DNA of 64,000 nucleotides from Nemertoderma westbladi. Its lineage: Eukaryota > Animalia > Xenacoelomorpha. The stretch lies in the NCBI GenBank assembly GCA_032718475.1, contig JAUCBJ010002727.1, forward strand, positions 1 to 64,000. Direction: 5' to 3'. Positions 24,101 through 48,652 of the stretch are shown here, one piece after another; within the stretch, counting starts at the first letter, position 1, and every line of letters starts with the position of its first letter. Under the pieces are notes generated by a model. The model did no database searches and was not told the origin of the DNA. It saw only the letters and a list, made by a program, of their open reading frames with translations. The translations under genes and the position numbers were made by a program.

Positions 24101-24994
24101 CTAAACGACTTCCGTATCAATGTAAACCAACGGAACACTCCTGTATCCCAAATACTGCTCCCTATCCCTGAGGTACTCCTCCTGCTCCTTATTACCTTTA
24201 TCCTCTACAGCGAGTTTCATGGCGAGTTTCCGAGTCACTTTAACCAAAGTCCTGAAATCGTGAGGAGGAAAGCAAACATGGACTCCGATCAAATCGACCA
24301 ACTTCATGTAGGAGTGGATGTTGGTTCGGCGGATGTTACCGAGTTCCTTCCTGCGTTTATCCACCAGTTCCTGCAGTCTTGCTTTTCCCATCTTATCTTT
24401 ATGATTCCTAGCAACGTGTTCTATTAGGTTGTGAATCTGTACAGTTAGTCTACCGACACGGACCTCAGACGAGGTCTTATCGTCTCGATGGAAACGCAAA
24501 CAGTCCAACATGGCCCGATGTCGGGCCTCCTTAACGTTATCGGGGTTCTTTAGCGTCGACTGGATGTAGCGCAGTAGATCGGGATTCCGACGGATTACCG
24601 ACTCTAGGTGTTGGAATCTCTCCGGAAGTTTCTGCTCTATAGTATCTCTATCTATCGCCTGTATCAACGGACCTGTTTCCGCCGTTAGATCCTCACGTTT
24701 TGGATGGAAACTCTTCTTGTATTCCTCCCAATCCGCCGGTAACCGTTTATACGCGCTAACTGGCAGATATGACGGAACCTTTCGGGATTCCTCCCCCGAT
24801 ATTTTTAAATTGTCCACTTTAAATTTAGCGATTTTCGGCATCTCCGCCCGCTTTGTTTTGTCTGTACCGGTGAGGTCGTCGTCTTTATATTTTGTACTGT
24901 AATAAACCATCGATAGACCAGTAACAGTAAAGCGGCAACGGTTTCTTCGAGTTTGGAGTAATCCACATCGGAAACTCTTCGCAGCGACAAACAT
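24101..24994 (-). CDS. MRPS15: Mitochondrial ribosomal protein uS15m, single-ORF gene
   Basis: S15 motif DKTSSEVRVGRLTVQIHNLIEHVARNHKDK...LQELVDKRRKEL and an Arg-rich N-terminus resembling a transit peptide; 297 aa. Confidence 0.9.
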   Translation of the reverse strand: MFVAAKSFRCGLLQTRRNRCRFTVTGLSMVYYSTKYKDDDLTGTDKTKRAEMPKIAKFKVDNLKISGEESRKVPSYLPVSAYKRLPADWEEYKKSFHPKREDLTAETGPLIQAIDRDTIEQKLPERFQHLESVIRRNPDLLRYIQSTLKNPDNVKEARHRAMLDCLRFHRDDKTSSEVRVGRLTVQIHNLIEHVARNHKDKMGKARLQELVDKRRKELGNIRRTNIHSYMKLVDLIGVHVCFPPHDFRTLVKVTRKLAMKLAVEDKGNKEQEEYLRDREQYLGYRSVPLVYIDTEVV

Positions 24995-27411: not shown

Positions 27412-29127
27412 TTAAGTATATTTAGGATAATCCGGACTCACGCTACATATCATAGCGGCGAGAGCGTCAACGGAATGGGAATCGGCGCTGGAGTCCGACA
27501 TGAAACAATCTTCGTCGCGAGAGGAATGTGAGCGACGCGGAGTATCCGAAGAGAGATCCCAATCGTGGAGAAATCCGGGGGAATTAAACTGAGCGGGACG
27601 CCGTCGGAATATCGGGTAGATAAACTCGGAACCGGATTCCGGGAGAGTGTAGGAGTCGTATGGGAAGAAGGACAGCATATCGACGACAGAGTTGTAAACA
27701 CTGTCGTTTATCGGAGAGGTATCAGTCAGTCGTTTATTTGATTCGATAATCGCGTGGCAGAAAACGATCTGGTAGATTCGGGTGACATTCGCGAAAGCCT
27801 CGACTAGGCTGGGGTTGAGAACGCGGAGAGGGTTGAGTTTACAGTCTATAAGTCGTGAGATACGGAGACCCTGGCAGAATGTTCGGTTGCTCGGGGATTC
27901 GAGGAGTTCTCTGTGTCGGTAGATTACCACATAGAACACGGCTTGGCAAAGCCCATAGAAGGCGGCGTGGGTCACAGGGTCACAGTTGCTACAGACAACG
28001 GCGTCGAGGTATTTGTGCAGCCAGTTAGTGGCCACGGTAAGGGCGTCCTTAACGAGAGTAGACGGGAGGAACTCGGCTCGAGCTAATAAACCGCCGAGGT
28101 ATCCGCTGCACGTCAATCTGAGGTTCCTACTGTTCGATACGTTCTGGAACTCGCTCAACAGACTGTCTACAAACAGTTCCGCCAAGTTCCTATGGAAACT
28201 AGACAAGTAGAACCAAACAAACTGTATGTGGCTCAGGTTGTGTGCGGTTAGGATTTTAGCTTCGAAAGTAACCCGTAGAGCGTCGTAGAGTTTGCGACAA
28301 TTTATTGGCACAACTTGGCCCTCGCGGTTCAATAACCGCTTCTTTATGTAACAGAAAATAAGGGCTATTAGTTTATCCTGGGTTACCAAGTTCCCGGTAC
28401 GTTTGGACGTGTCACCCGTATTCGGGTTGTAAGGTTCAATATCGATATCCATCTGGAATTGGACAGATTCTAAATTATCCGAAGGGTTGAAAGAAAACTC
28501 ACTTGTGGAAAAAGGAGGCGATTTCTTTATTGGAACTCGATTTTCCATAACTAAACATTTATCGATGATGAGGTCTATAATATCGTTCTCTCGATGGGGT
28601 AAATACGTCATTATTCGAATTAAGTTCGAAGCGTAACAAACTTGAGTAGCAGTGGGGCGATTCATGAAAGGATACATTGTTTTAATTAGGCGATATAAAG
28701 TCTGCTCAGATGCTGGAGATGTTTCCACGATCAAACCGATTGTTTCGTGTATAATATCCAACGATGCTTCCAGACAACTGTTTATGTCTACCGATAAACA
28801 CGAAAAATAACCAACCAACTTTTTAATACACATTTCGCAGCGCCCGGTTTCACTTAATAGTTTTAAAAAGTTTTGAAACGCGGCGACAACGTTCTGTTCG
28901 TACTTCGTCCATTCAACAGATAAAACCGCCGGTATTATCTTGTCATAATTAGGATGGGAAATGTTTTCGGAAAGGGCCAATATAATAGTGTTTAATTGGC
29001 AGCCTGTTAAGCCTTCTTCTCTGAGGATATTAACCAATTTCTTTAAAGCAACGTCTGAACCAGTTTTCATAGTTTCAATCATGCTAAGAATTTCGGCAGC
29101 AGTATTATCGGTATCCGTCGCCATCAT
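27412..29127 (-). CDS. RRN3: RNA polymerase I transcription initiation factor RRN3/TIF-IA, single-ORF gene
   Basis: Motifs HIQFVWFY, YLGGLLARA, HAAFYGLCQAVFYVVIYRH, LNPLRVLNPSLVEAFA and FFPYDSYTL; 571 aa. Confidence 0.95.
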   Translation of the reverse strand: MMATDTDNTAAEILSMIETMKTGSDVALKKLVNILREEGLTGCQLNTIILALSENISHPNYDKIIPAVLSVEWTKYEQNVVAAFQNFLKLLSETGRCEMCIKKLVGYFSCLSVDINSCLEASLDIIHETIGLIVETSPASEQTLYRLIKTMYPFMNRPTATQVCYASNLIRIMTYLPHRENDIIDLIIDKCLVMENRVPIKKSPPFSTSEFSFNPSDNLESVQFQMDIDIEPYNPNTGDTSKRTGNLVTQDKLIALIFCYIKKRLLNREGQVVPINCRKLYDALRVTFEAKILTAHNLSHIQFVWFYLSSFHRNLAELFVDSLLSEFQNVSNSRNLRLTCSGYLGGLLARAEFLPSTLVKDALTVATNWLHKYLDAVVCSNCDPVTHAAFYGLCQAVFYVVIYRHRELLESPSNRTFCQGLRISRLIDCKLNPLRVLNPSLVEAFANVTRIYQIVFCHAIIESNKRLTDTSPINDSVYNSVVDMLSFFPYDSYTLPESGSEFIYPIFRRRPAQFNSPGFLHDWDLSSDTPRRSHSSRDEDCFMSDSSADSHSVDALAAMICSVSPDYPKYT

Positions 29128-30942
29128 CTATTGCAGCTTAATATAAGAACATACCGTAAACATAAAGTGGTAACGGAACGCAGTACCGGTAGACTAATGT
29201 TATAGAAAATATAAAAACAAACTATAATGTTCAACATGTAACCCTGGCAACATGGTTTGCGCTTGGCCTAATTCCGTAAATCCTGTATAGGTCTATAATA
29301 TCTATCTGTCAATAAACTGATAAAGGCCAACAACACATGTGGATTAACGTGTTTCAGGGCCTCCACCTGCACTGTACCGGTACTGTATGTAGTTGTACAG
29401 AAGTACTGGTGCAGTGTTCTGTAACCTGCTCCTTTCCCTCAATTGGTAAAGTGGCCGTTTATTGTTTTGGTTATAAAAGCCTGCCTCTGTCAGTCTGTAA
29501 CCTGCTCCTTTCCCTTAATTGGTTTATGAGGCCTCCAGTATTACTGTATTATGTCTGTATGTGGAGGCCCCCAAACACGTTAATCCCAATAGGCCTACAT
29601 GGGCTACATGCATGGTGATGGTGGTATTATGGTTGGTACACGTGCAGTTGATACGTCGAACTCGAACTGTACGCGCTTTTGAAGACCTTTAGCAGTTTAA
29701 CCTGCCAAAATTTATATGTCTTTTGATTTATAAATATACTTTAGAAGATGACAAATATTTAATACCAATAAACAAAACATTAGCAGAAGCCAGCCTAGTG
29801 CGCGTCCATTCACCCGCTGGATAATCCCGGGAGGCTGGATTCTGTCGGCTTAGATTATTATTGCAGTGAAGCTTACGGTATTGTATTATTCGATTGATCG
29901 TTAATAATTAATTTCTGACTAATATTATTCACTTTCGGGAAATATTAACAGTTCCTTTTAGGACGTGGCGCTCTATCTAAGTAAACAGAGATATGACTTA
30001 TACTAATCACAACGGTAAGTCGGTAAGGCTTATGATTCACGTATGAGGCGCATTCTTTAGGAAATGCTTAGTTATCAGCCACAATCATGCACACCACCGG
30101 TAACGCACAATACTGCTCACTAATTTGCCGACCGTCAATGAATTTTATCATATATAAAGAGAATAGCAACGGACTCATGTAGGGCTTATCAAATAGCATT
30201 AAATTCAATACACACCACAATAATATAAGTCGCAATCGCTATATATATAACCCGCCTCTCTAACCTGTAGTGTATCAAGAAAATTGGGAAATTTGGGTTC
30301 TTTATAAATGTTCTCCAAATAATATTCAATCCACTGATATAAGATATGACAACAGTAAAACATTAAGACGGTAGGTTAAGATATGATATGCACTGATATG
30401 GACCGATATGTGAGTTGTTATGAACCGATAACAGTCATACGCTCTATAATCTTAAGCCTACTAATGTTTCTTTCTAGAGCCGTTGTTTCTGGCTTAGACA
30501 GCAATAACAACAAAGTATCAGTAAAAAACTGTAAGACTGAACAATCCCAGTATGATCGGCTCAAAGCTCCACATCGACAGAGAGAATCGCTCTGATTGGC
30601 TGAAGCCAAACAAAGAACCATGCGTCCAATGGCTGTTTCCATTTAAGCAACCAGCTGCTAGATGTCGTAATCTGAATCATCACGGCTAAGCTGTGTAAAA
30701 GTATTTGCCGTATTGCGGGTTTTTTGCCTTACCATGTCCGCTAAAACACGTATATAGCAGAATGACTTTTATGTCCGTTAAAACACCTGTAACGGTACCT
30801 TGAGGGCGAGGGGAATATATATACAGTTAGAGAACCTTTTTAGAGTATTCCAGCGCCTGGGGGGAAACTGGATTGCGAAGCAAAGGGGCCAGTTATATCC
30901 CACAGAAGCTTTTACACCGCTCCCAGAAAATGGGATTTGAGT

Positions 30943-31887
30943 CTATAAAATATACGAAATCACAGTTTCTAATATACGTAAATACTCTAAACAGTTAATC
31001 TTTCTTGCGCGGACGGCGTTTACGCAGTTTTTTAAAGCTAGCCAGAGTCTTTTCTCTTTGGGGCGAGCCACTTTACAAGGAGTGCTATAACTCCTGGGTG
31101 AAGGGTGCAATATGATTGCATCAGAGGGTGTAGGATCATGGTCGGTGTATCCGCCAGTCGAAGTGCCGGGTTGATTGACATCAACGTCGGGGGAGAGGGG
31201 TCTAACGGCCTTGAGAGCGCGTTTTAGGATGGCCGCTCTTACGGGTCCTTTACGAGTGGTCTGAACGAGAGCCGTGGGTGGACCATAGGCAGTTAGAAAC
31301 CTCCGGGGTTTAATGGTCCTTTCCAACTCGCGTTCGCGGGCTCGGTATTCGTAAGGCCGTCGATATACTTCCTGTAACTCGGGGTGTGAGTTAACAAACA
31401 AGTCTCCATAGTCCGGATCCTGACGGATATAATTGATTAAGTTATAGGAATGAAGGTCGCTAGGATTAACACTCCTGAGAAATTTGCGTACTAATTTGGT
31501 TGAAATACATTCTCCGACGCGCTTCAGTAGTTCGTAACTCGATATGCGTGATTTCTGTTCGACAGAAGCGAATAGATAAGGATGGAACGCATAAATTCCT
31601 TCGTAAGCGCGTCCAGGATAATAACGATGGCACGAATCACAATGTAAATCAGCGTTCGCTTCCCAAGCTCTGATGTAACGTAGTGTGATCATTTCATCTA
31701 CGCTTTCCAAATCGTGATTAAAAGGGCAATCGAAACTGGCGTGTCCCTTTAGTTGACAATGGTGACATTGAGTCATAAATTGAGGGCAAACCGCAAAAAC
31801 GTGCAAATTATTAAATCTGCAATACGCGCAATAAATTTCCATCGCCGGTTGTTCGTGGAAATAGGAACAGCGGACGTTTGTGTCCAT
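30943..31887 (-). CDS. Accessory ORF-B (CCHC zinc-knuckle protein) of element 2, N-terminally deleted
   Basis: Clear homologue of 59637-61355; homology extends upstream to about 32075; the stop lies just before the PPT. Confidence 0.8.
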   Translation of the reverse strand: MDTNVRCSYFHEQPAMEIYCAYCRFNNLHVFAVCPQFMTQCHHCQLKGHASFDCPFNHDLESVDEMITLRYIRAWEANADLHCDSCHRYYPGRAYEGIYAFHPYLFASVEQKSRISSYELLKRVGECISTKLVRKFLRSVNPSDLHSYNLINYIRQDPDYGDLFVNSHPELQEVYRRPYEYRARERELERTIKPRRFLTAYGPPTALVQTTRKGPVRAAILKRALKAVRPLSPDVDVNQPGTSTGGYTDHDPTPSDAIILHPSPRSYSTPCKVARPKEKRLWLALKNCVNAVRARKINCLEYLRILETVISYIL

Positions 31888-32043
31888 GGGCGTAACATGG
31901 TCTCTCGATGCGCATAACCGACAACGTTGCCGAGAAACATAGTTGTCATGGCGATAATCGTACGCAGTGAGACACTGTGGACCTTGATACCATTCTAGGA
32001 TGTAATCGTTGTCGCTGTTCCGAGCGCGATAGGCTGAATCTCC

Positions 32044-32442
32044 TCAGATTCTAGGCATATTGGTTCGTCTTCCCAGTCTGTTACGAATATAATTTTCGTG
32101 ATCTATTCTCGATTTATCGTTACGACGCCGCTGGGTATGATATTTAAATAGAACCATTTCCCTTTCGGTGTCTACATCGTCCGTATCATGTAAATCGATA
32201 GGATGGCCGGTAGTTAGGAGGTCCATATACGTATTATTACGATGCGTATAGCGAGCGGTGGATTTTCGATAGTCCAATTCACGCGCAAGTTGCTCTTGGG
32301 ACATCGGCGGTTCGATATAACGACCATCGTCCTCCGTAATGGTTGGATCGGCTTCACCGCGTATTAAGCTATCCACAAATGCTTGCAAAGGTAGAGTATA
32401 TCGCTCCCTAATACCAAGATCATCTTCTATCAACTCCGTCAT
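32044..32442 (-). CDS. Accessory ORF-A of element 2, unknown function, C-terminus cut by a deletion
   Basis: Nearly identical protein to 58452-58892 (MTELIEDDLGIRERYTLPLQAFVDSL...). Confidence 0.75.
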   Translation of the reverse strand: MTELIEDDLGIRERYTLPLQAFVDSLIRGEADPTITEDDGRYIEPPMSQEQLARELDYRKSTARYTHRNNTYMDLLTTGHPIDLHDTDDVDTEREMVLFKYHTQRRRNDKSRIDHENYIRNRLGRRTNMPRI

Positions 32443-34068
32443 ATCTGCTATCTGAGTTTATAAATATCAAATGAGTTTATATTTAGGCGAGCGGGCGTCG
32501 CTGCCTACTTCTCTTTGCCCCCGGACAGTGGGATTCTCAGCGCCGATGTACCGTCGTCGCGGTGTTTACGCCAACATGTAGCAACATCACGACAACGATA
32601 ACCGGCACAAGTCACTCCACTGTCCGTCCCAAAGGCTTGAATCCACTTTAGGTTCTTTCTATAGGAGAGTTGGGCTACTTTCACAATTGCGACTAGCTAC
32701 TGTAAACACACCTTAGCAGTAACATTCACCTATAAACGCACAAATTCCACACAACTGTCACCAATTGTACACATACAGGCCATTTGTCCGTTAGTCAGTG
32801 CCTTCCAGAATGTCACGTTATTACTGTGTATCCTTGGATACTAACAGTGTGCTATATTCTCTATGCGATGCAATGGGACAAGCTTTCTGTTGTTCTTTTA
32901 ACTTATTTCTAATTCTAGCGTGGGTGTTGCTATGGTGACATTATGGAATGCTAGCGGTAGAATTAGGGTAATTCTCATGCATACAGATCTGGGATGCTAT
33001 TTAATAATAATTCTTTAATTGTCAATATTCTCTTTATGCATGATTTTATTAATTTTATCGGCTATTGACTATATGTTGGAGATTCTCGCACTCTAATACA
33101 GTCAATAGGATGAATCTCCGCTCCCATGATCTATTAATTAATGGAATTTTGGGAATATTATAAATTGTACAAAATGACAATTTATGAAATTCATTTTAAA
33201 ATATGAATTTAAATTTATTCCCGTGAATTTTATTATTTGATGTTAAAATTGACACAATTTGATTCCAGAGCAGGTCTGGGGACATAGGATCCTTAATTCT
33301 ATGAAATTTGTCTTTTAAGAGTATCGGTAAGTGCTACAATACCTTAATTGACTAGAAATTTAAAGGATCTGAATTTTACAGATTTTACTAAATATTAAAT
33401 TAATATTTAAGATGGGCACCGATTTATTCCAGAGCTTGTCTGGGGACGTTAACCACTGATTCTAGAATTTGCCTTTCAAGTATATCGGTGGGTGCCACGA
33501 TATCTTAATCGACTAGAATTACAGATGGTCAAAAAGTTTAACAGATTTATTTGCGTTTTACGCTACTGTTATATGGACATCACGCTACTATATGTATTAT
33601 TTAATATAAGGTAGAAGAGCAATATCGCACGAAGCAATGTCAGTGTGAAGAGGCAAGTCGTTTCCAAGGTCTACCCAGAGCTTGGTTTAGCCGAGACACG
33701 AGGATCTGAATTTTGCATTCCTAATACTCTGCCTACCAATAATACTTGAATATAGTAGTGGCTTTATTGTACTTTAATAAGTACGGACATTTCATCTTAC
33801 TGTAGTCACGTATTTATAATATGATACGGACAGTAAGGAAAGAGAAAAAATAATTATTTCTCGCCGTCGCACTAAATATATTATAAGTAATTACGTACGT
33901 AATAAACACTAATATATTGCACTAATCTACTAAATAATCACTAAAATAACATTCTACTAAATAAAATTAAAGAAAACGATTATAATAAAATTACATAATA
34001 ATACATACATAAATATAAAATAAAAACAAATATAAAATGATATAGTCACACGCCCACTCCATATGTTA

Positions 34069-37000
34069 TTACGTTATAGAGTCCCTAGATATTTGTTGGA
34101 TTAGGGAAGTGGTCGTAGGAAGAGTATCTTGCCTTCCATAGTTTCCGGACAGTTTTCGGTCTCTTTCCAGTAAACATAAACGACCAGCTGGGCGATTGAG
34201 TTGTTGTGTTACTTTCTCCGCTCCCTTGGCCTGTCTAATCTCCACCGGGGTAAGATGAGGAGGCCATTCTTCTTCTTCTTTACTTAAGAAGTCGGATCCA
34301 CCTAACCAGCCTGGAGTATCTATTAGTTCTTGAGGAGTTGCTCCTCTGGAAACGATGTCGGCTGGATTAATCGTCCCAAGGCAATGTCTCCATTGATCTA
34401 TATTGGAGTTAATATCGTCATTATCTGAGGAGTATGGTGTTCCCTCAGTTGGATCGTCTACATCACTGCTCTCCACTTCCCATTCCTTTACTTGGTATAC
34501 CTGTTGTTGAGGTAATCTCTCTTTGAGAGTTCTACGGGAAGGGCCAGTGAAGTACCAACCTACTCTAGTTCTTACCGCATAGGTTTGCAGTGGCTGCGGT
34601 TGAGCAGGCCGTTTCTCCAATGTCTCGAGCGCCTCATGCGCGTTTTGGCCGATGAGTATTTGCACTCCAGGATAATCTGTTTGGAATCGAGGTACCTTAA
34701 GATGTTGGATGCTCTCATCTTCGTCCCAATTATATAGGTCTGCTTGAGTAGTAGCGAAGTTCTTTATAGCCACCATTTTTACCGACCTGATACCTTGTGA
34801 TCCTGATTTATCCTGGGGAGTGGACAACACACCTACATAGTAATCTGCCGCTAGGGTAGATTTCCAAACCTGCATGATTCCTGACATATTCAACTTAGTT
34901 CGGAATTTGGGTTGTCCAGCAAAGATGTCCTCGGCTAGTTCTTGATCGATGAATGTTCCTGTACTGCCGGAGTCAAGGAGGGCATTCACTATGTAACTTT
35001 TGTTAGGACCCTGAACTCTTACCTGCACTACAGGAAATTCTCTGATTCCTACGTTGGAAGTTGAAGGTTTCCAGGATGGTTGTCTGTCAAAGTTAGTTGG
35101 GGAGAACTCATTGTCGGTGTCCTTTTCGTAAGTAAGTGCTCGATACACTGCGGTATTTATTAGGTAACAGGATTCGTTGGCGTCGGAGAATTCGTCCGTA
35201 TAGAATCCTTCCCACTCAGAACTTTGGTCAGTGTCGTTCACATCACTGAATTGGACATGTGATTTGGGCTCACTTACCTGACTCGGGCTGTTTCGTTCGA
35301 ATTCCGTGTGCAACAAGCTATGATGTTCCGCGCCGCACTTAGCACACCTTGCGTCAGAGTAACAGGTTCGCCGCTGGTGTCCGCGTCTGAGACAGTTATA
35401 GCATAACCGCTTATCCCACATGACTTCACGTCTGTCTACCAGGGATTTCTTTAGGAATTCCGCACACGCACTCAAACGGTGGGGCCCATCGCACAGCGCA
35501 CATTTTGGTTTAATGTTACTCACTTTACCTTGGGTAACGTTATGCACTCTCGTTCTTTCTTCGGGCTTTCTTCCGTGTACTCTGTTAGGAGACTGAGGAG
35601 GAGTCTTAGCAACCTGTTCTCTCCTGTCATGGGTTCGAGCTTTAGATTTACTTACGTCCTTTGAGGTCTTGTTAACATAGTAAAATTTCTCGGTGTCTTT
35701 CCCGCTGTCTTCTTCTTCAGAAGCTTGGCTTTCGCCGTCATCAGTATAACACACCGGTGTTACTCTTCTCCTAGAAACGGGTTTCTCACTTACCTTATTT
35801 TCCGATGTTTTCTCCCTGGACTGTTTTATAAGTTGTAGTTTTACTTCACCGTCTAAGAAGGACATAAGATCAGCCATGGTAGGTCCCCGTCTTTGTTGCT
35901 CATTCATATACAATACCTTCTTGTCCCAGCGTGTACTGTACATACTCCACCCTTTGGTAAAGTAGAGACAATGGCTCCAATAACCATGGAACTCTGGTAT
36001 TCATGAGACTTACCTAACCAATCCAATTGTCTGCAGATCTCCTGGATCTCATCGGAAAACTCTATGATCCCGCTACTAAGGAACTTTCGGGGGGCTACTA
36101 ATTTCGCATACAAATACTTAGCTATGTTATCCTTATTACCATACCTGATGTTTAATGTATCCCAGACTTGTCTTAATCCATCTGGATGTCCAATAAACTT
36201 TAACGCCATTAACTTGGGAGGTCCTTCCAAACATTTGATGAGGAATCTCAGTTTCTCTCCGTTAGATAGTACAGAGTTCTGTATGCTATCTTTGTAATAT
36301 TCGTTGAAAGGTAACCATTTCATCTCATCTCCATTGAATTTGACGATCTCTCCCACTTTGACCGCTTGGCGGGCTTCTGTTCTAGCCATCTGACGCGTAA
36401 AGCTTTCTTGGGCCATCGTGTTATTTAATATCGAATTATCGGTATATAAAGTTCTCGGATCATTATCAGGTCTATAGGGAATATCATTAATAACAGGTCT
36501 ATAATCACCCTTAATAGGGTTTGCTATAGGAGTTTCAACTTCACTAGCAGTATAGATGCGTGTAGGCTCCACACCTTGCGCATGTAATACTTCAGACCTA
36601 ACAGGTTGACACAATGTTACAGGGGGTATTGGTATGCCCTTTTGTATATTGACTAATTTGTCGCGTTCTAGCGCGATACTTTGCTGCACCTTTTGCAACT
36701 CTAACCTACTTTCCCTTACTGTTCCCTTGAGCTGCTGGACAGTCTCTTCCATTTCCCGGACCTGCTGAGAGGAGCACAAACAGTGTTCCCTCAGCTGCTC
36801 GAGCAGGAGACCCATCTCCCGTCGTCCCTCAGCTACCCACTCAACCGCCGAAGCGGGAGTCGCCAACGTAGTAGCGGGCGAGCGAGAGACGACGGGCGAT
36901 AAATTCTTGATATCTCGCTCGGCGTCCAGGACGGGTTCGGACTCGGGAACAGTCCTACTGGGCACAGGTAGTTTAGTACTGTACAAAGGGAATTTATAGG

Positions 37001-37271
37001 CAGGTTCTGGGAGTACAGGTGTCTCTATCTTTCTTTCCGCTTCTACTGTTGCCATTGCCTCTGCCGCCTTTCTTTCCGCTTCTGCTGTTGCCATTGTCTC
37101 TGCCACCTTTCTTTCCGCTTCTGCTGTTGCCATTGCCTCTGCCACCTTTCTTTTCGCCTTTGATGTTGCCATTGCCTCTGCCATCTTCCTTTCAAGACCC
37201 TGTCCAAGTCTAAGACTCATTCTAACACCTTCCAAAAGACTATCTGACAGTGCCCGTTTTGTGTCAGACAT
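34069..37271 (-). pseudogene. Gag-protease plus remnants of RNase H and integrase (element 2)
   Basis: Gag core, CCHC knuckles, LLDSGS protease. A 5-bp duplication (gtaca) frameshifts near 35935; RT and most of RNase H/integrase are deleted. Confidence 0.9.
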
Positions 37272-40200
37272 GTTTGTTTGTACAGTTGAATGCCTACTGC
37301 TATATTACAGTTAAAGCAAGTCTAGTAATTCAGTATCACTGTTAGCCTAGTAATTAATTACCGATACTGCTACTCAGTGTAGCGTGAAATATATATAATA
37401 TATTAGAATACCGGTATGCTTATAGTATATATATAAGTATTATTACAGACTAGATTTGTCACAGAGTACCGGTATATAATTTTAGCGCAAATATATATAA
37501 ATATATAATAGGCCTATCGTGAATACCGGTATGCAGCTTACACTTATAGTATATATAAGTATAATTATGGACTAGAATTAATTACAGAGTACCGGTATGA
37601 TTTCAGCTCAAATTTATAGAAATAAATATAATAAGCCTATGGTAAATACTGGTATGTCAATTATTTTAGAATAATTGAATTTCTGAATATTTTAGGGTTA
37701 CTTGGTTACTTTAACTTACTTTATTACCGTTATTTAAGCAGTAATCCAACTGATATTGAGACCTAGTTGTTGTATGGCAGGCCTACTATTTATAAATCGT
37801 TTGAGTTGATTTATAATATTTATATACCCGTTTAAAATGGGTTTTGTCAATATTTGAAATAAATGTTATTATTTCTGGGGGGAGTCACTACACAGAAGCT
37901 GTGCGCTCTCAGTGAAGTGCTATTTATTGGACACTAAAAACTGATAATTCTAATTTACCTAAGTTACTTAATACTACAAATTACATACAATTCGGGGTGA
38001 GATTACAATCTCTAAATAAACACAACAAAAATATTACGTACGAATTTTTAGGGTAATTTTACAGGAAGTCTACAAACCAGTCTAACAAAGGGTTAGATTT
38101 CTGGTTATTACAACTGACAGGGTACTACGGTATTTGAAATAATAAGTAGTAGTAAATATATTGCACTGTCCAGATAGGAAAATACCACCGCCTGACGACC
38201 TATAACCGTATCGCTATAGGTACTACGTTATGTATTACGGAGTGTTCCTACCTGTTAATTACAGCGGACTACCAGATCCAGCGTGCCTATTAACCACTTT
38301 ACAACACAAATATACTGCCTACACACTAATTACCTCGGAAAGCACTGTACACTAAACCCTAAATTAGATACAAGTACTGGTACAACAAATAATCAGTAGT
38401 TAAATATACTTGAACAGTTAAAAGAACCACGGCATCTGCTGGAGTGACTGGAGCACAAAGTCACCAGTCTTTACCTACGCCTAGCAGCCCGTGTAGTACC
38501 GGGGTTAATTTAACTATAACGGTATGTGTAACAAACACAATTACTGTAGGAATAAACTTGGGGACATGAATGTTGCGAATAATCGCATAAACTCTGAATA
38601 ATAAATATTACGCTACCCGTACAGAATACTCAAACAAAATACAGACCAAATGCTGGCAGACTACCACCAAGCCTAAATAAACTACTGTATGTGCAGATTC
38701 CAAAACGGTTAGTTAGTATGCGTTCTAACACGGTAGTACGACTTATTCTTTAAGAGGGGATTGACCTTACAGTTATGACTGCCCCAACTTACTAACTGGC
38801 ACTTTATCAGACAAACTCTACACAAGCAGCAATCTCTTCAGACCTAATAATAGCTAGACAACAATCTAGCCTACAAAATATCTGAGTAATAACTATTACG
38901 GTACCTGAACAGACCACACAAACAAACACAGGCCAAAACACTGGCAGAATACTGTCAAGCCTAAATAAACTACAGTATGTGCAGATTCCAAAATTGTTAG
39001 TTAGTATGCGTTCTAACACGGTAGTACGACTTATTCTTTAAGAGGGGATTGACCTTACAGCGATGGCTGCCCCAACTTACTAACTGGCACTCTATCGGAC
39101 AAACCCTACACACGCAGTAATCTCTCCAAACCCAACAACAATCCGACAACAGTCCGGCCTACAGTTATCCGAACAATCTGAGCAGACTTACACGTCTTCA
39201 GCTCAATATTAACTTACTAGGAAATAAAACTGACAGAAATAAGTAAACTATACAAAGGAATGAGGGGTGATCAATCCCTATTCCCCTGGCAGCCTACAAT
39301 ATACTATAGATCACAATCGAAATAATACTAATGTACTTCTGTACTTATACTGGAAGTACCGGTTAGAACAGTTGGGCCTACAGACCTACAGAAGTACCGG
39401 TTCTGATAGTTGGACCTACGGACCTACAGCAGTACCGGTTCTGGCAGTTGGGCCTACTGACCTACAGAAGTACCGGTTCAGGTTTACTGGTTGACCGGTA
39501 CTTTCAACTTTATTGCTTACTGCAATAAAGTCAATGACTGTTATTGTACGCGCTTTTGAAGACCTTTAGCAGTTTAACCTGCCAAAATTTATATGTCTTT
39601 TGATTTATAAATATACTTTAGAAGATGACAAATATTTAATACCAATAAACAAAACATTAGCAGAAGCCAGCCTAGTGCGCGTCCATTCACCCGCTGGATA
39701 ATCCCGGGAGGCTGGATTCTGTCGGCTTAGATTATTATTGCAGTGAAGCTTACGGTATTGTATTATTCGATTGATCGTTAATAATTAATTTCTGACTAAT
39801 ATTATTCACTTTCGGGAAATATTAACAGTTCCTTTTAGGACGTGGCGCTCTATCTAAGTAAACAGAGATATGACTTATACTAATCACAACGGTAAGTCGG
39901 TAAGGCTTATGATTCACGTATGAGGCGCATTCTTTAGGAAATGCTTAGTTATCAGCCACAATCATGCACACCACCGGTAACGCACAATACTGCTCACTAA
40001 TTTGCCGACCGTCAATGAATTTTATCATATATAAAGAGAATAGCAACGGACTCATGTAGGGCTTATCAAATAGCATTAAATTCAATACACACCACAATAA
40101 TATAAGTCGCAATCGCTATATATATAACCCGCCTCTCTAACCTGTAGTGTATCAAGAAAATTGGGAAATTTGGGTTCTTTATAAATGTTCTCCAAATAAT

Positions 40201-41701
40201 ATTCAATCCACTGATATAAGATATGACAACAGTAAAACATTAAGACGGTAGGTTAAGATATGATATGCACTGATATGGACCGATATGTGAGTTGTTATGA
40301 ACCGATAACAGTCATACGCTCTATAATCTTAAGCCTACTAATGTTTCTTTCTAGAGCCGTTGTTTCTGGCTTAGACAGCAATAACAACAAAGTATCAGTA
40401 AAAAACTGTAAGACTGAACAATCCCAGTATGATCGGCTCAAAGCTCCACATCGACAGAGAGAATCGCTCTGATTGGCTGAAGCCAAACAAAGAACCATGC
40501 GTCCAATGGCTGTTTCCATTTAAGCAACCAGCTGCTAGATGTCGTAATCTGAATCATCACGGCTAAGCTGTGTAAAAGTATTTGCCGTATTGCGGGTTTT
40601 TTGCCTTACCATGTCCGCTAAAACACGTATATAGCAGAATGACTTTTATGTCCGTTAAAACACCTGTAACGGTACCTTGAGGGCGAGGGGAATATATATA
40701 CAGTTAGGGAACCTTTTTAGAGTATTCCAGCGCCTGGGGGGAAACTGGATTGCGAAGCAAAGGGGCCAGTTATATCCCACAGAAGCTTTTACACGAACTA
40801 CAAATAAACAGTGGTTGGTAGGCCTACACGTGCAGTTGATACGTCGAAATCGAACTACAAATAAACACATACAGACATAGTTTTCCTGTTTTCCTATTGA
40901 TGATGATTATTTAATATACCGGCAACCGGTACACCCCCATCTGCCCATTGACACCCCCTGAACCAAGCAGGGTTCAGGGTAGTCTTCAGTTTTATCGCGT
41001 TCGATGGTGGATAGTCTAGAGTCTCGACAGTTCGACACTTGAGGTCGAACTTGTCTGCACCCACCTGCACATCAGGCTGCAGCTGCAACCTGTCTTGCTG
41101 CTATGTACTGTACTCGTACCACGTACTGCTGTACTGCTGTAAAGTTAAAGACTGAAACAAGGTAGCAGTACAGCAGTAGGGCTGTTTACATAATCTCGTT
41201 TGAATTTCCCTCCCATTCATTGGCGGTTGTATCCCCACCTCACTCTTACATGAAATTGAGAAGACAACGTAAAGTAAAAGTAAAAGTAAATTTTCTTCGG
41301 CGACTTATTTTCAGTGCGGTCCCCCCCAGAACTATACTCCCCAGAGCAAACTCCAGTACTCATTTAGCTACCACTTAAGGCAGAGAAGCGCCATGGCTGG
41401 TCCCTTTTACCCATTGGTTTATTCTCGGCTCTCAGAACGGAGAATGCCATGAATTATCGGGTCGAGAATTGCGTGTTCTATTGGGACGGCGCCGCGAAGT
41501 TTGGTGGATCCTGAGTTCCTGACAATATATTAAATATCATTAAACACCATTTTCCGTTCTAGTTTCAGAGTTTAAGTACAACGAACATTGCAGTGCCTTG
41601 CTTATCATTTAATTTACCTGCGTGTAATACGCTAATAAACTAATACACCCTAATAGGCCCTACTGCCTAATGCTGTAAAACTAATTCAACAGGACAGCAG
41701 G

Positions 41702-42487
41702 ATGCAAACGCAGAAATTAATCCAACATATTGTCCAATGGCTGTCAGATTATTTGACCAGGTCGGGTCAAAAAGGTTTCGCAGTCGGTGTCTCAGGGGGT
41801 ATAGACTCCGCAGTTACGTCATCATTGTGTGCGAGAACCGGTAAACCAGTCTACTGTCTGGAGATGCCAATACACCAAGCTCCGGACCAGGTATCCCGGG
41901 CAACCAACCACGTAGACGCGCTGCAGAAGAAACATTCTAACGTACAACGAATAAAAGTCGATCTAACCGAAACTTTCGATAACTTCTGTAAAGCCTTTAG
42001 CGTCGATAAAACGGCGATAAACGCCGGTATCGCATTGGCTAACTCCCAATCGCGACTACGTATGACGACGTTGTACTGCGCGGCAGGAATGCATCAACTA
42101 TTAGTGGCGGGAACCGGGAATAAAGTGGAGGATTTCGGCGTCGGATTCTTTACTAAGTACGGCGACGGCGGGGTGGATTTATCCCCTATAGCAGATTTAA
42201 TGAAGAGCGAGGTTTACGAGTTGGGGACGGCGTTGGGAGTTAGCGAGGCGATTCTGTCGGCTGTTCCAACCGACGGGTTGTGGGAGGACAACAGATCGGA
42301 TGAGGACCAGATAGGGGCCTCCTACCCCGAGTTGGAATGGGCCATGAGGAACCATGAACTCCTGGCCGACGCGGATATAAGTGACAGACAGCGGGTTGTT
42401 ATGGCGATATTTAGGCGTCACAATGCCGCCGCCCAACATAAGATGAATCCAATACCGGTTTGCGAGATTCCGCCGGAACTGAAGTGA
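41702..42487 (+). CDS. nadE: NH3-dependent NAD+ synthetase, bacterial single-domain type
   Basis: GVSGGIDSAV P-loop, ANSQSRLRM, GTGNKVEDFGVGFFTKYGDGGVDLSPIADLMKSEV, PTDGL, DEDQIGASY and QHKMNPIPVC; 261 aa with no nitrilase/glutaminase domain. Confidence 0.96.
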   Translation: MQTQKLIQHIVQWLSDYLTRSGQKGFAVGVSGGIDSAVTSSLCARTGKPVYCLEMPIHQAPDQVSRATNHVDALQKKHSNVQRIKVDLTETFDNFCKAFSVDKTAINAGIALANSQSRLRMTTLYCAAGMHQLLVAGTGNKVEDFGVGFFTKYGDGGVDLSPIADLMKSEVYELGTALGVSEAILSAVPTDGLWEDNRSDEDQIGASYPELEWAMRNHELLADADISDRQRVVMAIFRRHNAAAQHKMNPIPVCEIPPELK

Positions 42488-42849
42488 TAGTTGGTTCTTA
42501 ATATGCTAAATGGGTTAATATAATATGCTAAATGGGTTAATATAAGCTCTACGAGCTAATAGAAACTCAATGTTCTAATACTGTATAAGCTAAATGCTAC
42601 AGTATAAACTAAAAAAGCAACTTCCAAATTTCCAATCACCCCCAATAACCTAAAAGGTTTTCTTTGTGACTTCCAATCTACTGTACAGAATGGAATACAA
42701 GTTGTGGACCCTTCGCGCATCACGGAAGCCTATAAAAGAAAGTGTACTAATCTCTATTAGATATACGAAAACCGTCATTCCCCAAATATTAAATGAGTGA
42801 TGCTTTGAGTTTTTGTTAAACTGGTTGTAAAAACAGAGGTCCATTTCAG

Positions 42850-43300
42850 TTTGCCCTTACACGCTTTAACTGTCATTTGTAAACCTACACAGTAGGGCTA
42901 TTTAAGTTAAGTATGACATTTTTTGTTTTACAATACTCGTCTCCTTCATTAGCCTCGTTGCGCTCGTCATGTTTGGTTTCAAAATATTTTTCCTAAACGG
43001 AGACTGACGAACTTTATAACTATGTAACTTTTCAAAAATGTGAGAGTACGGCAGATGGATACTCGTATCCATTGCAAAACTCATTGCGTTCGTTCTCTAC
43101 AACCTGGTCACCAAATATACCTTACAACATATACCGGTATCATACCTTTCCAAAGAACATGTGTACCAAATTTGGTTAGATTTCATCGAGGATTGGCTGA
43201 GTTATTAACGTTTAAAAACACGGACCTACAGAACGACAGACACAAAGATCGAGATAGTGGTACCCGTACGCTAAGCTCGTGGCTCGCCCCACTATAGTAA
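42850..43300 (-). mobile_element. Possible DINE-1/HINE-like element
   Basis: Block tgtgtaccaaatttggttagatttcatcgagg...tgagttat followed by acggac/acagac microsatellite-like units. Boundaries uncertain. Confidence 0.35.
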
Positions 43301-43732
43301 CAACTAAATGTAAATAACTATTACAATAACTATTGATTCTAGTTTATTAGAAACTGCGGTGCAATCAAGGCGTTACGCTATCATTATAAATACAATGTGT
43401 ATGAAAGCATCGGTTCAGATATTTGTTAATCATGTTCATTTAATACTGGAATATTATATTTAGTTAGGTTAGGTTGATGACCATATTTTAGTGTGTTATT
43501 AGTTTGGAATGTTTGTCTTTACGAATAAAAGTGGCGGTGAAAAATACAATTTTATTTAAAAGTAATAATTATGTGATAAACACAAATTTAATTCCCATGG
43601 CTCACTTAGTCGCATAAATCAAAAGGCTACCGAGCCTGTAATTTATTACACAAATTAACATCAATCATTGGCGCTACTAGTTTTCATCTTGTTTGAATAC
43701 GTTATTTTTGACAATGAAACAGATTCCATCCG

Positions 43733-44923
43733 CTGTCCCCGCCATCCCCTGTCTGCTGTTTGTCCAGCTGCATCCATCGCATTCCCTGTCTGCTGTTTGT
43801 CCAGCTGCATCCCTCGCCATCCCCTGTCTGCTGTTTTTCCAGCTGCATCCTTCGGCATCCCCTGTCTGCTGTTTGTCCAGCTGCATCCATCGGCATCCCC
43901 TGTCTGCTGTTTGTCCAGCTGCATCCCTCGCCATCCCGTGTCTGCTGTTCGTCCAGCTGCATCCCTCGCCATCCCCTGTCTACTGTTTGCTCAGCTGCAT
44001 CCATCGCATTCCCTGTCTGCTGTTTGTCCTGCTGCATCCCTCACCATCCCCTGTCTGCTGTTTGTCCAGCTGCATCCATCGCCACCCCCATTCTGCTGTT
44101 TGTCCAGCTGCATCCATCGCCAACCCCTGTATGCTGTTTGTCCAGCTGCATCCCTCGCCATCCCCGGTCTAATGTTTGCTCAGCTGCATCCATCGCATTT
44201 CCTGTCTGCTGTTTGTCCTGCTGCATCCCTCACCATCCCCTGTCTGCTGTTTGTCCAGCTGCATCCATCGCCACCCCCATTCTGCTGTTTTTCCAGCTGC
44301 ATCCTTCGGCATCCCCTGTCTGCTGTTTGCCCAGCTGCATCCATCGGCATCCCCTGTCTGCTGTTTGTCCAGCTGCATCCCTCGCCATCCCGTGTCTGCT
44401 GTTCGTCCAGCTGCATCCCTCGCCGTCCCCTGTCTACTGTTTGCTCAGCCGCATCCATCGCATTCCCTGTCTGCTGTTTGTCCTGCTGCATCCCTCACCA
44501 CCCCCTGTCTGCTGTTTGTCCAGCTGCATCCATCGCCACCCCCATTCTGCTGTTTGTCCAGCTGCATCCATCGGCAACCCCTGTATGCTGTTTGTCCAGC
44601 TGCATCCCTCGCCATCCCGTGTCTGCTGTTCGTCCAGCTGCATCCCTCGCCATCCCCTGTCTACTGTTTGTCCAGCCTCATCCATCGGCATCCCTTGTCT
44701 TCTGTTTGCCCAGCTGCATCCCTCGGCATCCCCTGTCTGCTGTTTGCCCAGCTGTATCCATCGGCATCCCCTGTCTGCTGTTTGCCCAGCTGCATTCCTC
44801 GCATCCCCTGTCTGCTGTTTGTCCAGCTGCATCCATGGGCATTCCCTGTCTGCTGTTTGCCCAGCTTCATCCTTCGGCCCCCTGAGTGCTGTTTGCCCAG
44901 CTGCATTCAACGGCATCCCCTGT
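43733..44923. repeat. 37-38-bp GC-rich minisatellite, about 31 copies
   Basis: Unit catcccctgtctgctgtttgtccagctgcatcc(a/c)tcg(c/g). Confidence 0.96.
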
Positions 44924-47900
44924 CATTCCTTTAACTCATTCAATAGAAAAGAATCAACAACATTATTATCATTCCTTTTACATTATTTTCACTGCAAATT
45001 TTGCTTATTGAATTCGTACAATGTAAATTTATACCTATGCATCTGTAATGAAACTTTGTTCATTAATATAGGTTGAACCGTGTTATGGTACATACATACT
45101 CTTACAACCTTGGTTATTACCTTTCAACTTTCAATCACCCCCCCCCCCCCCCTCCCCGCATATTACAAACCCCATACAGTCTGGGTACACAGCATTCTTA
45201 ATATGTAATATATATATATAATGCAGCTGCAATGCAGCATGCCGATCCTAGTAGTAGTAGGGTACTGGCAATGTAATTCAACCTGAATTAAGAAACAATA
45301 AGAGATCACCAGTTGTGATAAGGAACTCAGTGCTGAGACCGTTTGGGAATACACCACTTAAAAACCCCATGCGATATCGGCACTCATTCACTTATTGATT
45401 TTCTTTTCTATATACATTTATGTTTAATCAATTACATCAACGATCCTTGTACCAATATGGTGTGCAACTGAGAGTTTGTAACTGAGAGTCTGTTTACTTT
45501 GGTAGAATAATTGTGTAAAGGCTTTTGCGTAATTAGCCGGTTATTTTCCCCGTAAAGTACTCTGTAGTTGGTTTAACCGGCATAAAAGGCCGTGTCCTTA
45601 CTGTATTGTTGTTTTAGAGGACATAAAAGCCATTTCTTCTGTATGTGTACTTTAGCGGACATGATTAGCAATTCTATGACGCAATAAGCCGGATCCTCTT
45701 GAAACAGTGTAGATACCATGACGACGGCTAACAGCTGATATTGCCACGTAGAACATCCCTTTGTTCTTTGTTCTCTCTTTGTCCGGTCGACCAATCAGAG
45801 CGTTTTTTTGTCTCTGTGTTGGAGATGGTATATAGAAACTAGGGAAGTGAGTCAGTATTGCGACTTACATTAAGTGGTTTGAAGTGAATCTAATGCTATT
45901 TTATAGGCCCTACACGTATTGTCTGTTGTTCTCCTTATATGTGACTAAAATTAGTGAAGGTCGGCAGATTAGTGTGCAGTATTGTGCAGTATTGTGTATG
46001 ATTGTGATTGATAACGAAGCATCTCCTAAAGAATGCGCCATATACGTGAATCTATAGCCATCCCGTTGCGTCTGGTTTAAGTCATAACTCTGTTTATATA
46101 TTTAGAGCGCCACGTCCTAAAGGAACTGTTAATATTTCCCGAAAGTGAATAATATTGTCAGAGATTATATATCAAGATCAGTCGAATAATACAGTAGGTC
46201 TATCCCGCAATACGATTAGGCTTCCGAATCCAGTCTCCCGGGTATATCCAGCGGGTGAATGATCGCGCATAGACTGGTTTCGGCTAATGTAGTGTATCAA
46301 ATATTTGTCGTAGGCTAAAGACTATCTATTATCTAGAAGACATCCTAATTTGGCAGGTTAAACTGCTAAAGGTCTGAAAGCGCGAACAATAACGGATATA
46401 TCGTCTAATTGCAGGGTAGGCAATAAATACAGTTTAATATTGTTCTGGTAAGAACAATAACGAATAAAGCTTCTGTATTGCAGTAGGCAATAAAGCTGAA
46501 GTACCGGCATCCGGTACCCAGTAGGCCTGACTACCTAACCACCCGGACCGGTACCTACGGCAGTACAGGTACAGCAGTATTATTCGATTTTGATTATTAT
46601 ATACCAGTAGGTCTTAATAATTAATCGGGGATGCCTGGTTTTTATTGGGATTTTACTTAGGCCTATTTCTGTCAGTTTTATTTATTTGTAGGCCAATATT
46701 GAGCAGAAGGCGTGTAAGCCTGCTCAGATTGTACAGATAATTTGTAGGCTGGACTGTTGTCTAACTGTTGTTAAGTCTGAACGGATTACAGTGCATGTAG
46801 AGCATCTGTCCGATAAAGTGCTAGTTAGGAACGTAGGGGCTTCAAATGCTGTGAGGTAAACCCCCTTTGAAAGAATAAGTCATACTACTAGGTTAGAACG
46901 CATACTAACTAATCATTTCGGAGTCTGCATATACTGTGGTTTATTTAGGCTTGATAGTAGTCTGCCATCGTTTGGTCTGTACGTTGTTTGTGTAGTCTAT
47001 ACAGGTAGCGTATAATTCTTATTTAGATAATTTGTAGGCTGGATAGTTGTCTGGCTGTTGTTAGGTCGCTGAGGAAATTTCGGTGTGTGTAGAGTGTATG
47101 TCCGATAAAGTGCCAGTTGGGAACGTAGGGGCTTCCAGTGCTGTGAGGTAAACCCCCTCTGAAAGAATAAGTCGTACTACTAGGTTAGAACGCATACTAA
47201 CTAACCATTTCGGAGTCTGCATATACCGTGGTTTGTTTAGGCTTGATAGTAGTCTGTCAGTATTTGGTCTGCATTTTGTTTGAGTAGTCTGTACGCGTAG
47301 CGTAATATTTATTATTCAGAGTTTATGCGATTATTCGCAACATTCATTCCCCAAGTTTGTTCCTACAGTAATTGTGCTTGTTATACATACCGTTACAGTT
47401 AAACTAACTCCGGTACTACATCAGGGCTGCTCGGCGTAGGTAAAGACTGGAGATTTTGTGCTTTGGTCACTCCGGCAGATACCGTGGTTCTTTTAGCTGT
47501 TCAAGTATTTTTAACTACTGATTATTTGTTGTACAAGTACTTGTACCTAATTTAGGGTTTAGTGTACAGTGCTTTCCGAAGGCAATTAGTGTGTAGGCAG
47601 TATATTTGTGTTGTAAAGTGGTTAATAGGCACGTTGGTTCTGGTAGACCGCGGTAATTAACTTCTGGGTAGGAACACTCCGTGATACATAACGTAGTACT
47701 TATAGCGATACGGCTATAAGTCGTCAGACGGTGGTATTTTCCTATCTGGACAACGCAGTATATTTACTACTACTTATTATTTTCAAATACCGTAGTACTC
47801 TGTCCGTTGTAATAACCAGATATTCTAACCCTTTGTTAGGCTGGTTAGTAGACTTCTTGTAAAATTACCCTAAAAATTCGTATTTGTGTATTTGTATTTT

Positions 47901-48652
47901 TTTTTGTGTTTATTTAGAGATTGTAATCTCAACCCGAATTGTATGTAATTTGTAGTATTAAGTAACTTAGGCAAATTAGAATTATTTGTTTTAGTGTCCA
48001 ACAAGTAGCACTCCACTGAGAGCGCACAGCTCCTGTGTAGTGACTCCCCCAGAAATAATAACATTTATTTCAAATATTGACAAAACCCATTAAACGGGTA
48101 TATATATATTATAAATCAACTCAAACAATTTATAAATAGTAGGCCTGCCATACAACAATTAGGCCTAAATATCAGTTGGACTACTGCTTAAATAACGGTA
48201 ATAAAGTAAGTTAAAGTAACCAAGTAACCCTTAAAAATTCAGAAATTCAGTTATTCTAAGAATAATTGACATACCGGTATTTACGATAGGCCTATTATAT
48301 ATTTAGAAATTTAGGCTGAAATTATACCGGTATTCTGTAATTAATTCTAGTTAATAATTATACTTATATATACTATAAGTGTAAACTGCATACCGGTATT
48401 CACGATAGGCCTATTATATATTTATATATACTTGTGCTGAAAGTACATACCGGTATTCTGTGAAAAATCTAGTCTGTGACAATACTTATATATATATACT
48501 ATAAGCATACCGGTATTCTAATATATTAAATACATATTACGCTACACTGAGTAGCAGTATCAGTAATTAATTACTAGGCTAACAGTGATACTGAATTGCT
48601 AGGCTTGCTTAAACTGTAATATAGCAGTAGGCATTCAACTGTACGAACCAAC

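What the first reader, a model, noticed from the sequence alone, without database searches (positions are those of the whole stretch)
41702..42487. Bacterial-type nadE apparently domesticated in an animal-like genome
Known: eukaryotes typically use a ~700-aa glutamine-dependent NAD synthetase with a nitrilase domain. Seen: this intact 261-aa single-domain enzyme (EMPIHQ, VEDFGVGFFTKYGDGGVD, HKMNPIPVCEIP) resembles, from my recollection, Bacteroidota/Flavobacteria NadE. It is flanked by eukaryotic transposons and genes, and a branch point plus acceptor (ctaat...caacag) lies 9 nt before the ATG, suggesting a 5' UTR intron or trans-splicing. Inference: horizontal transfer allowing ammonia-based NAD synthesis.
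Basis: partly seen in the sequence, partly recalled or inferred. Interest (0 to 1): 0.8.

Follow-up and report, generated by a model that had tools for sequence, protein, structure and literature searches.

The report
Bacterial NAD synthetase in animal genome
An intact NAD-synthetase gene of the short bacterial type sits between host repeats next to an ordinary eukaryotic gene in what is likely an animal genome; it was likely taken long ago from a Flavobacteria-like bacterium and is predicted to finish NAD synthesis with free ammonia instead of glutamine, a form I did not find reported for animals.

Summary
Confirmed: 41702-42487 is an intact 261-aa single-domain NadE, 60-66% identical to its 120 best hits (24 of 25 named are Bacteroidota). 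It keeps the ATP, Mg and NaAD-binding residues. Contamination is unlikely: three genomic-looking runs from two studies carry the gene and its non-coding flanks on one contig at single-copy depth. No bacterial neighbour gene is present, and its CpG content matches host genes, not bacterial orthologues. A very recent BEL/Pao retrotransposon separates it from RRN3; without it the two genes lie head-to-head, 1.44 kb apart. No nitrilase exon was found, and the glutaminase-docking tail is absent, so ammonia use is likely but unassayed. The proposed splice is not supported: the motif is there, but the one transcriptome-like run reads straight through it. The donor, the host, the age and whether NADSYN1 was lost are unresolved (no genome held). 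Precedents: NadE acquired by gut fungi, and a foreign nadC in bdelloids. No animal NadE turned up in my searches, and the scan had not noted it elsewhere. New member of a known kind; interest 0.5.

The parts
41702..42487 (+). nadE ORF, 261 aa, intronless single-domain NAD synthetase of Flavobacteriales type
41792..41809 (+). SGGIDS pyrophosphate-binding loop (residues 31-36)
   Evidence: B. subtilis S46/G48/D50/S51 in Table S4 of PMC3376133
42146..42169 (+). FFTKYGDG nicotinate/ribose-binding motif (residues 149-156)
41632..41692 (+). five CTAAT copies ending in a candidate 3' acceptor (caacag), 9 nt before the ATG; its use is not shown
   Evidence: read through unspliced in run X3
41351..42760 (.). 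single-copy stretch (gene plus non-coding flanks) recovered as one contig in runs X1, X2 and X4 at single-copy depth
   Evidence: tables 2 and 8
42488..43530 (+). likely 3' UTR region; poly(A)-signal-like hexamers at 42788 and 43524; X3 pieces cover 42460-43207 and 43277-43493
   Evidence: the end of the transcript is not shown
29668..40793 (-). 11,126-bp BEL/Pao-type LTR element, TG...CA ends, LTRs of about 1.25 kb differing at 1 base, 5-bp target duplication CGAAC (29663-29667, 40794-40798); inserted between RRN3 and nadE
27412..29127 (-). host RRN3, single exon; head-to-head with nadE, ATGs 1,443 nt apart at the empty site
24101..24994 (-). host mitochondrial-type ribosomal protein S15, single exon; used as host control

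Best explanation
This is an intact single-domain nadE embedded in host DNA, likely acquired long ago by horizontal transfer from a Flavobacteriales-like bacterium into what is likely an animal, likely expressed, and predicted to make NAD+ from deamido-NAD using ATP and free ammonia. Shown: the ORF, family, active-site residues, single-copy integration, lack of bacterial neighbours and lack of a nitrilase domain. Inferred: as in solved NadE enzymes it would form a homodimer, adenylate the nicotinate carboxyl of NaAD (SGGIDS loop, E143 and T190 with Mg), and let NH3 displace AMP. With no N-terminal extension it is likely cytosolic. It landed head-to-head with the housekeeping gene RRN3 and likely uses that shared 1.4-kb intergenic region as its promoter. 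It would serve as the last step of the de novo, Preiss-Handler and nicotinamidase routes, either replacing or supplementing the glutamine-dependent NADSYN1; which of the two is untested.
For: Origin: the 120 best hits are 60-66% identical over 98-100% of the query; 24 of the 25 with an organism name are Bacteroidota. 77 of 80 GTDB loci carry Bacteroidota titles. Best bacterial score 370 bits against 36.9 bits for the 707-aa two-domain PDB enzyme 6ofb, human by its title. IQ-TREE places it in a 96/94 clade of 48 rows with all 22 named bacterial loci. Integration: one contig 41351/2-42760 in X1, X2 and X4 at depth 20.5, 41.7 and 40.7. Listed neighbouring low-depth pieces are 47.8-58.9 in X2 and 29.3-43.3 in X4, while repeat bins reach 1e5-1e6. 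An X3 piece, 42460-42873, runs on past the 42760 break. All 481 tblastx hits to 80 bacterial loci overlap the ORF, so no gldB, gldC or response regulator came along. Residence: CpG o/e 1.27 against host 1.37 and 1.23 and bacterial orthologues 0.81 +/- 0.19 (0 of 80 as high); four-fold sites saturated at 25% identity. Function: 108 of 112 near-invariant columns are kept. The main B. subtilis Table S4 ATP, Mg and NaAD residues that I mapped are identical or matched by H. pylori/C. jejuni, except A209, which is D in the whole subfamily. The model has the NadE fold. Ammonia type: 14 residues follow K247, against 13 in B. subtilis and 38-49 in two fused enzymes. Flavobacterial NadE have no glutaminase entry in Table S3. 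Expression: X3 behaves unlike the genomic runs (641 contigs laid against 22,000-85,000; repeat depth about equal to gene depth) and covers the gene.
Against: No contig bridges nadE to RRN3; that link rests on the window assembly plus the depth and break-point pattern. X3 is labelled 'DNA?' by guess, so expression is inferred from depth behaviour only. The protein departs at 4 near-invariant columns (Q116, S117, C126, A244), where bacterial rows average 0.86 and only 3 of 120 have 4 or more. The tree contains no eukaryotic NAD synthetase, its outgroup was not one side of a branch, and the sister group is unresolved; the FastTree sister at 95 was not reproduced. The host codon model rests on two genes and beat 79 of 80 bacterial models, the best of them by small margins. 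A few relatives are fused to nitrilase (P0302, 50% identity), and five relatives' genomes hold unlinked nitrilase genes, so a remote partner is not excluded.
Confidence: 0.8

Rival explanations
1. Contaminant or symbiont DNA mis-joined into an animal assembly.
For: Wholly bacterial-looking and intronless; no single read or contig bridges it to a host protein gene.
Against: Depth matches host single-copy pieces in three runs from two studies; the contig includes about 350 and 270 nt of non-coding flank and breaks at the same places in all three; no bacterial neighbour genes; host-like CpG content; host RRN3 and S15 are intronless too.
Confidence: 0.03
2. A real but recent, non-functional insertion from a symbiont (dead on arrival or decaying).
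For: Four departures at near-invariant columns; no RNA evidence on record.
Against: No homologue is above 66% in any collection searched; synonymous sites are saturated while the ORF and active site are intact; the three X1 variants listed within the ORF are one silent and two missense in a variable loop; X3 covers it at a depth between those of RRN3 and S15.
Confidence: 0.05
3. It works as the synthetase subunit of a two-part glutamine-using enzyme, with a separately encoded nitrilase or with nitrilase exons spliced on from upstream.
For: Types C and R exist (PMC3376133); a fused relative at 50% exists (P0302); a candidate acceptor lies just before the ATG.
Against: A nitrilase profile that scores P0302 at E 4e-77 finds nothing in 2,697 six-frame peptides of the window (best E 7.2); 9 upstream frames carry no nitrilase match; the extended C-terminal loop required for glutaminase docking is absent; RRN3 lies directly upstream on the other strand.
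Confidence: 0.07
4. It is an NMN synthetase (amidates NaMN) like Francisella NadE, which is its top solved-structure match.
For: 3fiu ranks first by sequence and by Foldseek, at about 30% identity.
Against: At the positions I recall as closing the adenosine pocket in the Francisella enzyme (Y27, Q133 and a nearby Arg; Sorci 2009, recalled, not read), this protein has S21, G129 and L133, like B. subtilis T36, G148 and L152; H246 and Y17 of the NaAD adenine site are kept.
Confidence: 0.04

Closest known systems
Single-domain NH3-dependent NadE (type N) of Flavobacteriales, in the gldB-gldC neighbourhood; solved relatives B. subtilis 1EE1/1NSY, H. pylori 1XNG, P. horikoshii 2E18
   Same: Length (259-265 aa in most), start and end points, fold (TM about 0.75-0.79), catalytic motifs; 60-66% identity to flavobacterial proteins.
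   Different: Sits alone in a repeat-rich eukaryotic chromosome head-to-head with RRN3; host-like CpG content; end branch 0.59 with no resolved sister.
Eukaryotic glutamine-dependent NADSYN1/Qns1 (type F; PDB 6OFB)
   Same: Same reaction product and the same core synthetase fold.
   Different: About 19% identity, no nitrilase domain, no extended C-terminal loop; type F was found in all 16 eukaryotic genomes of PMC3376133 (sections 11 and 15 read).
Horizontally acquired NadB/NadA/NadE in anaerobic gut fungi (bioRxiv 10.1101/487215; passages read)
   Same: Bacterial NH3-dependent NadE listed as an HGT gene in a eukaryote.
   Different: Fungal anaerobes in an ammonia-rich gut with a whole bacterial de novo route; here a likely animal, and only nadE is seen. 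Whether the donor group is the same was not checked.
Foreign nicotinate-nucleotide diphosphorylase (NadC) in the bdelloid Adineta ricciae (PMC3499245; passages read)
   Same: A foreign gene possibly replacing a metazoan NAD-biosynthesis enzyme in an animal.
   Different: A different step; no NAD synthetase term in its 9 supplements.

Membership tests
NAD synthetase (NadE/NADS) family | Synthetase domain above the curated cut-off | tested here: met
   PF02540 159 bits against 21; TIGR00552 172 against 63.65. Lineage-specific PRK models are below their cut-offs.
NAD synthetase (NadE/NADS) family | ATP/PPi, Mg and NaAD-binding residues | tested here: met
   S31 G33 D35 S36 N114 R118 R120 T138 E143 F149 F150 T151 K152 D155 D159 K168 P189 T190 L193 D202 H246 K247 against Table S4.
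NAD synthetase (NadE/NADS) family | NadE fold | tested here: met
   Model pLDDT 83, pTM 0.84; all listed Foldseek hits are NadE/NADS.
Type N (ammonia-only) NadE | No fused or clustered glutaminase | tested here: met
   None in the window; none on the nadE contig in 5 of 5 relatives.
Type N (ammonia-only) NadE | No extended C-terminal loop | tested here: met
   14 residues after K247 against 38 and 49 in S. avermitilis and C. hutchinsonii.
Type N (ammonia-only) NadE | No remote glutaminase partner in the genome | not testable with these tools
   No genome held.
Type N (ammonia-only) NadE | Activity with NH3 and not with glutamine | not testable with these tools
   Needs an assay.
Eukaryotic NADSYN1 (type F) | N-terminal nitrilase domain | tested here: not met
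Francisella-type NMN synthetase | Bulky residues closing the adenosine subsite (positions recalled) | tested here: not met
   S21/G129/L133 against Y27/Q133/R137 in the alignment; their role is recalled, the paper was not read.
Domesticated bacteria-to-animal HGT gene | Far closer to bacteria than to animal homologues, nested in a bacterial clade | tested here: met
   370 against 36.9 bits; clade support 96/94, but no eukaryotic rows in the tree.
Domesticated bacteria-to-animal HGT gene | Physical linkage to host DNA in independent data | tested here: met
   Single-copy depth and flanks in X1, X2, X4; X3 piece across 42760. A direct bridge to RRN3 was not seen.
Domesticated bacteria-to-animal HGT gene | Transcribed by the host | tested here: inconclusive
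   X3 behaves like a transcriptome and covers it, but its kind is only guessed.
Domesticated bacteria-to-animal HGT gene | Spliceosomal intron or spliced leader gained | tested here: inconclusive
   Motif present; the X3 contig reads through it; contigs can clip leader tips.
Domesticated bacteria-to-animal HGT gene | Orthologues in related species under purifying selection | tested here: inconclusive
   Runs of organisms B and C match neither nadE nor RRN3/S15 at 80%, so they are uninformative.

The most novel reading that the evidence does not exclude
Probability: 0.35. Interest if true: 0.72.

Novelty: new member of a known kind. Interest (0 to 1): 0.5.

Why it matters
The main survey of this family found only the fused, glutamine-using form in eukaryotes (16 genomes) and argues that glutamine matters because free ammonia is usually low in cells (PMC3376133). 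An animal keeping an intact ammonia-type enzyme gives a natural test of whether animal cells can supply enough ammonia for NAD synthesis, and of when a bacterial enzyme can displace an essential host one. The locus also shows a plausible route to expression without gaining an intron, by landing head-to-head with a housekeeping gene. A near-identical-LTR insertion in that shared region offers a natural promoter-disruption allele. Bacteria-to-animal transfer of metabolic genes is itself well known, which caps the surprise.

Tried and rejected
No whole genome is held, so NADSYN1, nicotinamidase, NAMPT and paralogues could not be searched. No RNA holder was listed; this is no evidence either way. 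X3 has no cover over the 38-bp tandem array at 43680-44747; not used as evidence. Runs X6, X7 and X8 laid at 80% gave only short repeat matches. Phage donor: the best viral contig is 57%, below cellular hits. JGI metagenomes gave 64% at best. Cluster look-ups of 20 proteins named no eukaryote. Rfam found nothing in the window. FastTree's sister group and the quick trees were set aside for the finished tree. P0294 (nitrilase plus NadE, 60%) holds only a 76-residue nitrilase piece on a 2.2-kb contig and may be a read-through artefact. An AGGA lies 7 nt before the ATG; I treat it as chance. Literature: ten searches and the supplements of PMC5490193 (3 files), PMC3499245 (9 files) and PMC4053834 (12 of 16 files) gave no animal NadE. 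HGT lists in unseen supplements or subscription journals could hold one.

Full report
Observation. The window encodes an uninterrupted 261-aa protein at 41702-42487. It scores far above the cut-offs of PF02540 and TIGR00552. The neighbours are eukaryotic: single-exon RRN3 and mitochondrial-type S15 on the minus strand, and BEL/Pao gag-pol ORFs. I did not identify the host.

Origin. The best 120 of 8,000 scored candidates are 60-66% identical over essentially the full length; 25 carry organism names, 24 of them Bacteroidota and 1 a gammaproteobacterial MAG. Of the 80 best GTDB loci (kept from 596 in a partial scan), 77 have Bacteroidota titles, 2 Paracoccaceae and 1 unclassified. Viral contigs reach 57% and metagenome contigs 64%. 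The human two-domain enzyme scores 36.9 bits against 370 for the best hit. I built a 56-row IQ-TREE from 22 of the 80 loci, 33 chosen proteins and the window protein. It lies in a 96/94 clade with all 22 named bacterial rows, on an end branch of 0.59 with no resolved sister. The outgroup was imperfect and no eukaryotic sequence was available, so the tree shows the subfamily and not the donor.

Is it really in the host genome? Five runs from three studies, all labelled organism A, hold 70-96% of its words. In X1, X2 and X4 the gene and its flanks form one contig, 41351/2-42760, at depth 20.5, 41.7 and 40.7. Other listed low-depth pieces nearby are 47.8-58.9 in X2 and 29.3-43.3 in X4, while repeat bins reach 1e5-1e6. 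X1 and X2 are one sample, and one of these runs may be the source of the assembly. The contig breaks at the same places in all three runs, beside high-depth bins, and an X3 piece (42460-42873) runs across the 3' break. Bacterial relatives sit by gldB, gldC and a response regulator; none of 481 tblastx hits falls outside the ORF. No contig bridges nadE to RRN3 directly. CpG o/e is 1.27, against 1.37 and 1.23 for the two host genes and 0.81 +/- 0.19 for 80 bacterial orthologues, none as high, including the 10 matched for GC3 (maximum 1.05). Four-fold sites are saturated at 25%. A codon model from the two host genes fits better than 79 of 80 bacterial-locus models, which is weak on its own. Together these point to long residence.

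Locus anatomy. An 11,126-bp BEL/Pao-type element spans 29668-40793, with TG...CA ends, LTRs differing at one base and a CGAAC target duplication. Subtracting it leaves the ATGs of RRN3 (minus) and nadE (plus) 1,443 nt apart, head-to-head. I infer that nadE uses this shared region as its promoter; this is untested.

Expression and splicing. Run X3, from a separate study, laid 641 contigs where the others laid 22,000-85,000, and its repeat depth is of the same order as its gene depth. It covers S15, RRN3 and nadE with long pieces at unequal depths. That is how a transcriptome behaves, but the run's kind is only guessed, so expression is likely and not shown. Its contig 41355-42247 crosses the proposed acceptor without a gap, and it is the only contig in that bin. 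No GTRAG donor lies in 41355-41701. In favour of some processing, five CTAAT copies cluster there, and four upstream ATGs would otherwise stay in the leader. Contigs can drop a short leader tip, so trans-splicing is neither shown nor excluded; a cis intron within this stretch is unsupported.

Enzyme. The protein keeps 108 of 112 columns that are at least 95% conserved in the 120 hits; the four departures are more than most bacterial rows show. One of them, Q116, is shared with the Francisella enzyme. Residues listed for ATP, Mg and NaAD binding in Table S4 of PMC3376133 (supplement read) map onto S31, G33, D35, S36, N114, R118, R120, T138, E143, F149-K152, D155, D159, K168, P189, T190, L193, D202, H246 and K247. 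The model (pLDDT 83) matches only NadE/NADS structures among the listed hits. A nitrilase profile that detects a fused relative at E 4e-77 finds nothing in the window's six frames. The paper names an extended C-terminal loop as the mark of glutamine-using forms (section 15); here only 14 residues follow the conserved lysine. Its Table S3 lists flavobacterial enzymes without a glutaminase. Five relatives have nitrilases only on other contigs. Ammonia dependence is therefore likely. The top structural hit is the Francisella NMN synthetase, but the pocket residues are of the B. subtilis kind; their role is recalled.

Mechanism committed to. A likely cytosolic homodimer adenylates NaAD and amidates it with free NH3, ending the de novo, nicotinate and nicotinamidase routes. 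Many invertebrates keep nicotinamidase (PMC3665594, abstract and passages), which releases ammonia (own knowledge); whether this host has it is unknown. Replacement of NADSYN1 cannot be tested because no genome is held.

Comparison and novelty. PMC3376133 (abstract, sections 11 and 15, passages, Tables S3 and S4 seen) found only fused enzymes in 16 eukaryotes. Bacterial NadE is listed among HGT genes of anaerobic gut fungi (10.1101/487215, passages), and a foreign nadC may replace the host enzyme in a bdelloid (PMC3499245, passages). Ten searches and three supplement sets gave no animal NadE; unseen supplements may hold one. The scan's own notes hold no animal nadE, only phage NAD operons among look-alikes. 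Verdict: a real, likely old and likely functional bacteria-to-animal transfer; a new member of a known kind; interest 0.5, rising to about 0.7 if NADSYN1 proves lost.

Noticed in passing
window 29668-40793 and about 45512-62296: Two related BEL/Pao-type elements with nearly identical LTRs (99.9%) flank nadE in opposite orientations, leaving it on a 4.7-kb island. The upstream copy lacks the RT-integrase stretch seen in the downstream one.
   Followed up: partly
window 30943-32457 (-) and 58419-61355 (+): Both elements carry extra ORFs after pol with Cys/His-rich motifs; the 366-aa and 577-aa frames had no Pfam match. A possible accessory gene of this element family.
   Followed up: partly
window 27412-29127 and 24101-24994: RRN3 and mitochondrial S15 are single-exon. 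RRN3's first ATG directly follows ...ctgcaatag, an acceptor-like AG; the X3 contig runs about 200 nt upstream and then has 40 unmatched letters.
   Followed up: partly
window 43736-44924: 38-bp tandem array of 31 copies with several long open frames on both strands; low depth in the genomic runs.
   Followed up: no
window 45220-45260 and 29418-29490: Short stretches hit by many X3 contigs with differing loose ends, likely small repeats carried in many transcripts.
   Followed up: no
L020, L050, P0078: The flavobacterial-type nadE also occurs in Paracoccaceae MAGs next to a glutathione S-transferase, in a gammaproteobacterial MAG and in hundreds of viral contigs, so this subfamily moves often.
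   Followed up: partly
P0302: A nitrilase-NadE fusion (517 aa) at 50% identity to this otherwise single-domain subfamily; possibly an independent origin of a glutamine-using form.
   Followed up: partly
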